A DNA stretch of 6,045 bases from a virus (lineage: Duplodnaviria; Heunggongvirae; Uroviricota; Caudoviricetes), in the IMG/VR virus record IMGVR_UViG_2671180755_000006. One strand, given 5' to 3'. The notes below the pieces were generated by a model. It made no database searches and had not been told where the DNA came from. It saw only the letters and a list, made by a program, of their open reading frames with translations. Below are positions 3,098 to 3,346 of the stretch, piece by piece (position 1 is the stretch's first letter; each line of letters opens with the position of its first letter). The position numbers and the translations under genes were made by a program.

Positions 3098-3162
3098 CCC
3101 AGTTAACATTACGCGTCCTGCAAGACGCTTAACATTAATCTGAGGCCCAATCTATGCTTCAC
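3098..3162 (-). ncRNA. sok: putative Sok-like antisense RNA (antitoxin of the hok locus); ends approximate
   Basis: Minus-strand promoter-like hexamers TTGCCT (+ coords 3192-3197) and TAACCT (3169-3174) with a 17-nt spacer, overlapping the hok SD as in R1 sok. The transcript would be antisense to the upstream start region at 3154, with a hairpin at 3113-3128. Boundaries are inferred, not seen. Confidence 0.4.
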
Positions 3163-3210
3163 AAACGTAGGTTAGCCTCTTACGCGCCGAAAGGCAAGGA
3201 GAAGCAGGTT

Positions 3211-3346
3211 ATGAAGCAGCAAAAGGCGATGTTAATCNNNNNNNNNNNNNNNNNNNNNNNNNNNNNNNNNNNNNNNNNNNNNNNNNNNNNNNNNNNNNNN
3301 NNNNNNNNNNNNNNNNNNNNNNNNNNNNNNNNNNNNNNNNNNNNNN
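3211..3346 (+). CDS. hok: Hok/Gef-family type I toxin, only the first 9 codons visible (MKQQKAMLI); the rest lies in the N run
   Basis: SD AGGAG (3197-3201) then ATG 3211. The N-terminus MKQQKAMLI matches HokD/RelF as I recall it. An in-frame upstream ATG at 3154 with SD GAGG gives a mok-like leader. The stop must lie inside the N run because a terminator starts right after it. Confidence 0.65.
3238..3346. other. run of 109 N (unresolved or masked sequence) inside the hok-like gene
   Basis: Seen directly. The visible hok frame has no stop before running through its own terminator, so the run probably does not preserve true length. Confidence 0.95.

What the first reader, a model, noticed from the sequence alone, without database searches (positions are those of the whole stretch)
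3154..3237. The mok-like upstream start is in frame with hok, unlike the R1 arrangement
ATG 3154 (SD GAGG) is exactly 57 nt upstream of and in frame with hok ATG 3211. The other two frames are closed: a TGA at 3212-3214, and a TAG at 3168-3170 with no start codon after it. In plasmid R1, as I recall it, mok overlaps hok in a different frame. Here translation from 3154 would make a 19-residue N-terminally extended Hok, a possibly different coupling mode.
Basis: partly seen in the sequence, partly recalled or inferred. Interest (0 to 1): 0.45.

Follow-up and report, generated by a model that had tools for sequence, protein, structure and literature searches.

The report
In-frame mok leader of prophage hok
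The upstream start codon is the normal 'mok' leader of a prophage hok/sok toxin-antitoxin locus, and being in frame with hok is a common, already annotated arrangement (as in E. coli K-12 mokC/hokC), so it is ordinary.

Summary
ATG 3154 (SD GAGG 3142-3145) lies 57 nt upstream of hok ATG 3211 and in frame with it, and the other two frames are closed. The R1-type locus has 58 nt, so its mok is in the +1 frame. The 1-nt phase difference is therefore real.

It is not unusual, however. E. coli K-12 mokC/hokC is annotated with the same 57-nt in-frame geometry and a shared stop codon. The studied hokW-sokW locus of phage VT2-Sakai (Sp5) also has 57 nt in frame, and its 70-aa ORF was deposited as 'gef homolog'.

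I surveyed 86 distinct hok loci from species-representative genomes. Of the 74 with an SD and start at the mok position, the spacing was 57 nt in 33, 58 in 29, 56 in 6, 59 in 3 and 60 in 3. The frame changes even within the hokD clade, through 1-nt indels in three different leader segments. The 19-codon extension shows no codon periodicity.

The Rfam leader match, the predicted tac/fbi, ucb/SD and SD/dcb pairings, and a SokC-homologous antisense RNA all fit the canonical mechanism. The frame looks incidental. Verdict: already known, low interest.

The parts
3008..3035 (+). Putative hok mRNA promoter: -35 TTGCTG at 3008-3013, a 16-nt spacer, and -10 TAGAAT at 3030-3035.
   Evidence: Read directly from the sequence. 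It lies 5-7 nt upstream of the first base of the Rfam leader match at 3042. The simple promoter scan did not call it because the -35 matches only 3 of 6. This part is inferred.
3040..3053 (+). 5' end of the hok mRNA, the tac element (GCGGGUGCUUGAGG).
   Evidence: This is where the Rfam RF01794 match starts. In the identical sequence of L001 it pairs with the 3' fbi element in the full-length fold and with ucb in the 3'-truncated fold.
3042..3216 (+). hok mRNA leader: the Rfam 'sok' family model, which is built in the sense orientation.
   Evidence: RF01794 scores 114.9 bits against a gathering score of 59, E = 2e-26, covering the full model 1-157.
3095..3100 (+). ucb (AGCCCC), the anti-SD box that sequesters the mok SD in the full-length mRNA.
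   Evidence: In the ViennaRNA MFE of the L001 full-length mRNA, ucb pairs with GAGG. In truncated RNA it pairs with tac.
3142..3145 (+). mok Shine-Dalgarno sequence, GAGG, 8 nt upstream of ATG 3154.
   Evidence: GAGG plus a start codon is conserved at this position in 74 of 86 loci.
3154..3210 (+). mok-specific 19 codons (MLHKRRLASYAPKGKEKQV), in frame with hok.
   Evidence: The geometry is homologous to K-12 mokC and to Sp5 orf74. There is no codon-position periodicity in 14 homologous extensions.
3175..3179 (+). dcb (GCCUC), which pairs with the mok SD in the processed mRNA. The resulting hairpin contains the mok AUG and is the Sok target.
   Evidence: In truncated-mRNA folds of L001, SD 3153-3156 pairs with 3187-3190 (L001 coordinates, which are window +11). 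The hairpin also appears in the Rfam alignment.
3196..3201 (+). hok's own Shine-Dalgarno sequence, AAGGAG, 9 nt upstream of ATG 3211.
3211..3237 (+). First 9 codons of the hok (HokD/HokW-type) toxin gene (MKQQKAMLI). The rest lies under the mask at 3238-3346.
   Evidence: The identical-flank genome L001 annotates hokD, 51 aa, WP_000813254.1. The cluster is named HokD.
3087..3162 (-). Predicted Sok antisense RNA, with 5' end at about 3162 and 3' end at about 3087. It is complementary to the first 3 mok codons, the mok SD and the upstream hairpin.
   Evidence: The 5' end is placed by alignment to the annotated K-12 sokC. The minus-strand RNA folds into a long hairpin with a single-stranded 5' tail, at -33.6 kcal/mol, z = -5.8. 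The ends are inferred, not measured.
3169..3197 (-). Putative Sok promoter on the minus strand: -35 TTGCCT at 3197-3192, a 17-nt spacer, and -10 TAACCT at 3174-3169. It lies inside the mok codons.
   Evidence: Read from the sequence and from the alignment with the sokC, sokB and R1 antisense sides. The consensus scan did not call it because the -10 is weak. This part is inferred.
3347..3374 (+). Intrinsic terminator of the hok mRNA. The fbi element just upstream of it is under the mask.
   Evidence: The terminator scan finds 7 pairs followed by a T run. In L001 the fbi sequence GCACCCGC lies directly upstream and pairs with tac.

Best explanation
[quoted passage not shown] It sits in the nin region of a lambdoid, Stx-phage-like prophage of E. 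coli, and ATG 3154 is its mok leader start.

Mechanism. The steps below come from R1 genetics and are inferred here by homology and folding.
1. The full-length mRNA is closed: 5' tac pairs with 3' fbi, and ucb covers the mok SD.
2. Slow 3' trimming refolds the mRNA. tac then pairs with ucb, and the mok SD sits in the SD/dcb hairpin.
3. Either Sok RNA binds that hairpin, blocks mok initiation and triggers RNase III cleavage, or, when Sok has decayed, ribosomes start at 3154.
4. Translation of the 19 mok codons runs through the hok SD and AUG, whose AUG is predicted to pair with hok codons 12-13. This opens the hok initiation region so that ribosomes can start at 3211 and make the 51-aa toxin.

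What matters is that ribosomes traverse those 57 nt, not the frame they are in. The frame is set by a leader length constrained to about 57-58 nt by RNA structure, and it flips freely by 1-nt indels. In this in-frame version the mok-initiated ribosomes necessarily make a 70-aa Mok, which is the 19-aa basic tail plus Hok. This is most likely a by-product.
For: Family identity:
- Rfam RF01794 scores 114.9 bits over 3042-3216.
- Flanks are 100% identical to loci annotated hokD in EHEC genomes.

Same geometry already annotated:
- K-12 mokC 16751..16960 and hokC 16751..16903 share a stop codon and start 57 nt apart.
- In VT2-Sakai/Sp5 hokW, mok ATG 615 and hok ATG 672 are 57 nt apart. GenBank annotates the 70-aa ORF there as 'gef homolog; orf74'.

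Survey of 86 distinct loci:
- Of the 74 with an SD and start at the mok position, the spacing is 57 nt in 33, 58 in 29, 56 in 6, 59 in 3 and 60 in 3.
- The 57-nt spacing arises from four different combinations of three segment lengths.
- The hokD clade itself holds 57-, 58- and 56-nt members.

No protein-coding signature in the extension:
- Variable sites are 9/9/9 by codon position. In the adjacent hok CDS the third position is the most variable.

Folding:
- The full-length L001 mRNA gives tac/fbi plus ucb/SD, z = -8.2.
- The 3'-truncated RNA gives tac/ucb plus SD/dcb, with the hok AUG paired to codons 12-13.

Sok:
- It aligns with the annotated sokC, and its structure has z = -5.8.

Literature:
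- For R1, translation of mok rather than its product is what is needed. Stops upstream of the hok start abolish Hok, and stops after the hok start do not (PMC9841398).
- hokW-sokW is a functional type I TA system that depends on RNase III and Hfq (PMC8621323).
Against: - Nothing here is experimental for this exact locus.
- The hok body and the fbi element are masked in the window, so they are read from an identical-flank genome instead.
- The survey pattern required the dcb box, the hok SD and ATGAA. It therefore cannot test whether in-frame loci relax the hok SD or AUG.
- It samples only hok clades that keep those motifs; K-12 hokE, for example, would be missed.
- The Sok and hok promoters fall below the simple consensus scan.
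- The periodicity test rests on 14 sequences from several clades, and 18 of the 57 positions are fixed by the search pattern.
- Whether the 70-aa product is inert is unknown.
Confidence: 0.85

Rival explanations
1. Two-isoform toxin. In in-frame loci the 70-aa Mok-Hok fusion made from ATG 3154 is itself a membrane-active toxin, or a modulator of the 51-aa form. Sok would then directly gate a toxin ORF, and the internal start at 3211 would be secondary.
For: There is no stop between 3154 and the hok stop, so any mok translation must yield the fusion. The extension is strongly basic (MLHKRRLASYAPKGKEKQV). From general knowledge of the positive-inside rule and Gef topology, that is compatible with the cytoplasmic N-terminus of Hok. 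In-frame loci are about half of those surveyed.
Against: The frame flips between close relatives, including within the hokD clade. The extension shows no codon periodicity, and its conserved residues coincide with RNA elements: dcb, the Sok promoter and the hok SD. Six in-frame loci carry a stop before the hok ATG yet keep hok intact. The 51-aa HokW alone is toxic (PMC8621323). In R1 the Mok product is dispensable (PMC9841398).
Confidence: 0.1
2. ATG 3154 is not used. Hok is translated only from 3211, and the upstream ORF is a relic.
For: hok has a stronger SD (AAGGAG) than mok (GAGG). In 12 of 86 surveyed loci there is no start codon at the mok position, yet the hok ORF is intact.
Against: An SD plus start is conserved at the homologous place in 74 of 86 loci. 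The predicted Sok RNA covers the mok start and not the hok start, so regulation only makes sense through mok. In R1, mok start-codon and SD mutants abolish Hok (PMC9841398). The hok AUG is predicted to be base-paired.
Confidence: 0.04
3. The in-frame relation is a chance feature of an unrelated sequence, or a sequencing or assembly artefact of this window.
For: One offset in three is in frame by chance, and an 18-codon stop-free run is unremarkable.
Against: The identical sequence occurs in many complete EHEC genomes: 341 records at 99% identity or more. The same 57-nt spacing is found in independent clades and species.
Confidence: 0.01

Closest known systems
mokC/hokC(gef)/sokC of E. coli K-12
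   Same: The geometry is identical. The mok ATG is 57 nt upstream of the hok ATG and in frame with it, and the two share a stop codon (69 aa = 19 + 50). The GAGG SD is 8 nt before the mok ATG, and the Sok 5' end lies 8 nt inside mok. The extensions are similar: MLNTCRVPLTDRKVKEKRA there against MLHKRRLASYAPKGKEKQV here.
   Different: It is a different Hok clade (HokC, 50 aa, against HokD/W type, 51 aa). It lies on the chromosomal backbone next to IS186 rather than in a prophage. The segment lengths are 20/12/7 rather than 21/11/7.
hokW-sokW of Sakai prophage 5 (VT2-Sakai), PMC8621323
   Same: It is a prophage-borne HokD-type locus with a near-identical leader, including the 18-nt insertion in the Sok hairpin. 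mok is 57 nt upstream and in frame, and the 70-aa ORF is annotated as 'gef homolog'. It has been shown to be a Sok-, RNase III- and Hfq-dependent TA system that is induced on prophage induction.
   Different: There are a few substitutions in the leader and at the Hok C-terminus (…VFVDYESEK there, …VFTAYEPEE here). It sits at a different position and in a different prophage backbone. That paper does not discuss mok at this locus.
hok/mok/sok of plasmid R1 (parB)
   Same: It has the same set of elements (tac, ucb, mok SD, dcb, hok SD, fbi, Sok), the same 19 codons of mok upstream of the hok start, and the same predicted refolding scheme (PMC9841398).
   Different: The spacing is 58 nt, not 57. 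The extra base is in the loop of the mok-start hairpin: 22 nt against 21 nt from the ATG to GCCTCTTAC. R1 Mok is therefore a +1-frame 70-aa protein unrelated in sequence to Hok, and it matches NCBIfam NF010277, which the product here does not.
mokB/hokB/sokB of E. coli K-12
   Same: It is a chromosomal hok locus with a mok leader and a Sok RNA.
   Different: The spacing is 58 nt, so mokB is in the +1 frame and encodes 55 aa. This shows that chromosomal loci are not uniformly in frame.

Membership tests
[quoted passage not shown] | A hok mRNA leader with the conserved sequence and structure (Rfam RF01794). | tested here: met
   114.9 bits against a gathering score of 59, over window 3042-3216, covering the full model.
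[quoted passage not shown] | A Hok/Gef-family toxin ORF of about 50 aa. | tested here: met
   Only 9 codons (MKQQKAMLI) are visible in the window because of the mask. The identical-flank genome L001 has a 51-aa CDS annotated HokD. The exact sequence belongs to a cluster named HokD. NCBIfam NF007279 aligns to residues 23-67 of the 70-aa form, but below its cut-off (47 against 73 bits).
[quoted passage not shown] | An upstream leader ORF (mok) with its own SD, whose translation runs across the hok initiation region. | tested here: met
   GAGG, then 8 nt, then ATG 3154, open through ATG 3211. The position is homologous in 74 of 86 loci. That translation actually occurs is not testable with these tools.
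[quoted passage not shown] | A cis-encoded antisense Sok RNA that covers the mok initiation region. | tested here: inconclusive
   The minus strand at 3162-3087 aligns with the annotated sokC and sokB and folds with z = -5.8. The promoter hexamers TTGCCT/TAACCT are present but below the scan threshold. There are no expression data for this locus. sokW of the close relative is expressed (PMC8621323).
[quoted passage not shown] | Long-range 5'-3' pairing (tac/fbi) that closes the full-length mRNA, followed by refolding after 3' trimming. | tested here: met
   These are predicted folds of L001. The full-length RNA gives tac/fbi and ucb/SD, z = -8.2. The truncated RNA gives tac/ucb and SD/dcb. The fbi element is under the mask in the window itself.
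R1-type Mok protein (NCBIfam NF010277, 'modulator of post-segregation killing protein') | A 70-aa +1-frame protein matching the Mok equivalog model. | tested here: not met
   R1-type Mok scores 151.6 bits, and the 70-aa product here has no hit to NF010277. This Mok is not a member of that protein family, although it plays the same leader role.
In-frame mok class (mokC-like) | A mok ATG that is a multiple of 3 nt upstream of the hok ATG, with no intervening stop and a stop codon shared with hok. | tested here: met
   57 nt with no stop. The shared stop is read in L001. It is the same as K-12 mokC and Sp5 orf74.

The most novel reading that the evidence does not exclude
In the roughly half of hok loci where mok is in frame, the obligatory 70-aa Mok-Hok fusion could be a functional second isoform of the toxin. 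It might differ in membrane insertion, potency or timing. Sok would then directly control a toxin ORF, and killing would not depend on re-initiation at the hok AUG. My evidence does not exclude this. The survey pattern fixed the hok SD and AUG, so it could not test whether they are dispensable. No protein data were available to me beyond an unexamined C-terminal FLAG blot of HokW.
Probability: 0.12. Interest if true: 0.4.

Novelty: already known. Interest (0 to 1): 0.1.

Why it matters
It matters little as a discovery. The in-frame mok arrangement has been in the K-12 annotation (mokC) and in the 1999-era VT2-Sakai record for decades, and it fits the accepted view that mok translation, not Mok protein, activates hok.

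The one useful by-product is the small survey. Mok-hok spacing is held at 57-58 nt while the frame drifts: 36 loci in frame, 29 in +1 and 9 in +2. This is a compact piece of comparative support for the 'translation, not product' model.

It also carries a practical warning for annotators. In-frame loci get called either as 51-aa Hok or as 70-aa 'Hok family toxin', and a recent preprint (10.1101/2025.08.07.668861) explicitly left Mok unannotated as 'not trivial'.

Tried and rejected
- **K-12 hokD leader.** It cannot inform on mok.
- **My recollection of mokB.** I recalled that mokB is in frame with hokB. The annotation shows 58 nt, so it is in the +1 frame.
- **Literature on mok reading frames.** Searches for 'orf69'/gef and for statements on mokC being in frame found nothing usable. 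Gultyaev et al. 2000 and Thisted et al. 1994 are not held. Statements about Poulsen et al. 1991 (orf69) and Pedersen & Gerdes 1999 therefore rest on my memory or on second-hand citation (PMC8825762).
- **Promoter scan.** The consensus scan missed both the hok and the Sok promoter and gave one unrelated plus-strand hit at 3129-3158. I do not interpret that hit.
- **Local MFE fold.** The fold of the window's mok-hok segment alone was not better than shuffles (z = -0.6). Only the whole-mRNA folds were informative.
- **hokW leader primer.** Searching the fetched loci for it gave no hit, so hokW was fetched from the phage collection instead.
- **Searches not run.** I did not use the large protein-homology, structure-prediction or fold-search tools, because nothing in the question depended on them.

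Full report
**What is in the sequence.** GAGG lies at 3142-3145 and ATG at 3154. The hok SD AAGGAG is at 3196-3201 and the hok ATG at 3211. The two ATGs are 57 nt apart in the same frame, with no stop between them. The +1 frame is closed at 3173, 3212 and 3233, and the +2 frame at 3168. Neither frame contains a start codon in this stretch.

The window is masked with N from 3238 to 3346, so only nine hok codons can be read. In genomes whose flanks are 100% identical, those 109 Ns stand for 197 bases. In one such genome (L001, O157:H7 PV15-279) the ORF from the upstream ATG runs to the hokD stop. It encodes 70 aa, which is 19 plus the 51-aa HokD.

**Context.** The window is the nin region of a lambdoid, Stx-phage-like prophage of E. 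coli. The gene order is P, DUF1627, small ORFs, hok, DUF968, rusA, Q, then tRNA genes.

**The ATG is the mok start, not a chance ATG.** Rfam RF01794 models the hok leader in the sense orientation. It matches 3042-3216 at 114.9 bits against a gathering score of 59. In an alignment with R1-type hok and with K-12 hokC and hokB, ATG 3154 falls at the annotated mok starts.

**The comparison with R1 is correct.** The R1 leader as I recalled it is 100% identical to sequence found in several thousand plasmids. In one of them (L003), mok ATG 516 and hok ATG 574 are 58 nt apart. That Mok is a 70-aa +1-frame ORF ending 4 nt before the end of the hok stop codon. The extra base is in the hairpin that holds the mok AUG. 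From the ATG to GCCTCTTAC is 22 nt in R1 and 21 nt here, and the other two segments are equal.

**The in-frame state is ordinary.**
- MG1655 annotates mokC at 16751..16960 and hokC at 16751..16903. They share a stop codon and start 57 nt apart.
- The mokA pseudogene also shares its end with hokA.
- mokB, by contrast, starts 58 nt upstream of hokB and ends elsewhere, so it is in the +1 frame.
- The experimentally characterised prophage relative, hokW-sokW of VT2-Sakai/Sp5, has mok ATG 615 and hok ATG 672. That is 57 nt and in frame. The GenBank record annotates the 70-aa ORF as 'gef homolog; orf74'.

**Survey.** One scan of species-representative genomes used the pattern GCCTCTTACN{10,13}CAAGGAGAAN{5,8}ATGAA and returned 88 loci. 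Among 86 distinct loci, 74 have GAGG plus a start codon at the mok position. The mok-hok spacing among those 74 is:

| Spacing (nt) | Loci |
|---|---|
| 57 | 33 |
| 58 | 29 |
| 56 | 6 |
| 59 | 3 |
| 60 | 3 |

By frame, that is 36 in frame, 29 in +1 and 9 in +2. In the +2 class mok is a 19-20-codon leader whose TGA overlaps the hok ATGA.

The 57-nt spacing arises from four different combinations of the three segment lengths: ATG to dcb, dcb to hok SD, and hok SD to hok ATG. Within the HokD clade (MKQQKAMLI) most loci are 57 nt, but L015, L016 and L080 are 58 nt and L076 is 56 nt. The R1-like MKLPRNALI clade holds both 57 and 58. Length is therefore held to about 57-58 nt while the frame drifts.

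Among 14 distinct extensions of the same geometry, variable sites are 9/9/9 by codon position. In the adjoining hok CDS the third position is clearly the most variable. The conserved residues of the extension (LASY, KGKEKQ) are translations of dcb, of the Sok -35 and of the hok SD.

Two caveats apply. The pattern fixes dcb, the hok SD and ATGAA, so the survey cannot say whether those are relaxed in in-frame loci. It also samples only clades that keep these motifs.

**Mechanism.** Folding the full-length mRNA from L001 gives 5' tac paired to 3' fbi and ucb paired to the mok SD, at -180.7 kcal/mol and z = -8.2. Removing the 3' end gives tac paired to ucb and the mok SD paired to dcb. In every fold the mok AUG sits in the stem and the hok AUG is paired to hok codons 12-13. 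This reproduces the R1 scheme summarised in PMC9841398.

On the minus strand, 3162 to about 3087 aligns with the annotated sokC. It folds into a long hairpin with a free 5' tail, z = -5.8. It would cover the mok SD and start but not the hok start.

For R1, mok start and SD mutants and stops upstream of the hok start abolish Hok, whereas stops after the hok start do not (PMC9841398). The coupling therefore needs ribosome passage over the first 19 codons, and this is frame-independent. Applying that to the present locus is inference by homology.

**What remains open.** In an in-frame locus every mok-initiated ribosome must make the 70-aa fusion. Whether that product is inert, toxic or modulatory is untested. 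The hokW-3FLAG western in PMC8621323 could show it, but the text does not comment and figures are not available to me. I give the idea that the long form has a role of its own about 0.1.

**Verdict.** The arrangement is already annotated and common, and it does not indicate a different coupling mode. It is already known and of low interest.

Noticed in passing
window 3238-3346 and 4837-4870: The window has two masked N runs that are shorter than the DNA they replace. The first is 109 N and stands for 197 nt (the hok body, 3' UTR and fbi) in genomes with identical flanks. The second is 34 N inside a rusA-like ORF that starts at ATG 4789; rusA is 360 nt in L001. Coordinates downstream of each mask are therefore compressed, and ORFs listed through the Ns, such as the '108 aa' ORF 3154-3480, are artefacts.
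   Followed up: partly
L021, L083, L073, L028, L085, L081, L090, L061, L087 (survey loci, mok position): In 12 of 86 hok loci there is no ATG, GTG or TTG at the mok position; ATA or ACG is there instead. Most still keep an intact hok ORF and hok SD. These may be loci silenced by a point mutation, or they may use a non-canonical start.
   Followed up: no
L012, L014, L020, L047, L054, L066, L069, L070, L076: A third class of loci has mok-hok spacing of 56 or 59 nt. There mok is only 19-20 codons long and ends at the TGA overlapping the hok ATGA. This is a termination-overlap geometry that differs from both the in-frame and the R1 +1 arrangements.
   Followed up: partly
L032 (Xanthomonas pisi, 431-nt contig), L086 (Streptomyces morookaense), L082 (Ferruginibacter MAG), L063 (Haemophilus MAG), L041 (Ca. 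Scatousia MAG): hok leaders identical or nearly identical to E. coli or R1 types sit on short contigs of taxonomically distant assemblies. The likeliest explanation is enterobacterial or plasmid contamination of those assemblies.
   Followed up: no
window 2863-2967 (+): A small hydrophobic ORF (MSDDISLVMEGALAVIAVVGVYCLVVFLMERLGN, 34 aa) lies just upstream of the hok promoter. In L001 it is annotated as hypothetical protein WP_001278460.1. It is a possible single-pass membrane peptide of unknown role.
   Followed up: no
58-nt (+1 frame) loci in the survey, e.g. L003, L011, L015, L017, L023: In most +1-frame loci the mok ORF stays open for 55-71 codons and ends within a few nt of the hok stop. 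That looks longer than expected if only the first 19 codons matter. I did not test whether it reflects hok codon composition or selection.
   Followed up: no
window 5857-5932 and 5940-6016 (+): Two tRNA genes lie downstream of the Q antiterminator gene: anticodon CAT (annotated tRNA-Ile in L001, called Met by ARAGORN) and anticodon TCG (Arg). This is the arrangement typical of Stx-converting phages just upstream of the stx or late region.
   Followed up: partly
window 3104-3121 versus K-12 hokC/hokB and R1: The Sok-hairpin region carries an insertion of about 18 nt (ACGCGTCCTGCAAGACGC) relative to hokC, hokB and R1. The insertion is shared with hokW of Sp5. It lengthens the predicted Sok terminator hairpin, making Sok about 76 nt rather than about 59-64 nt.
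   Followed up: partly
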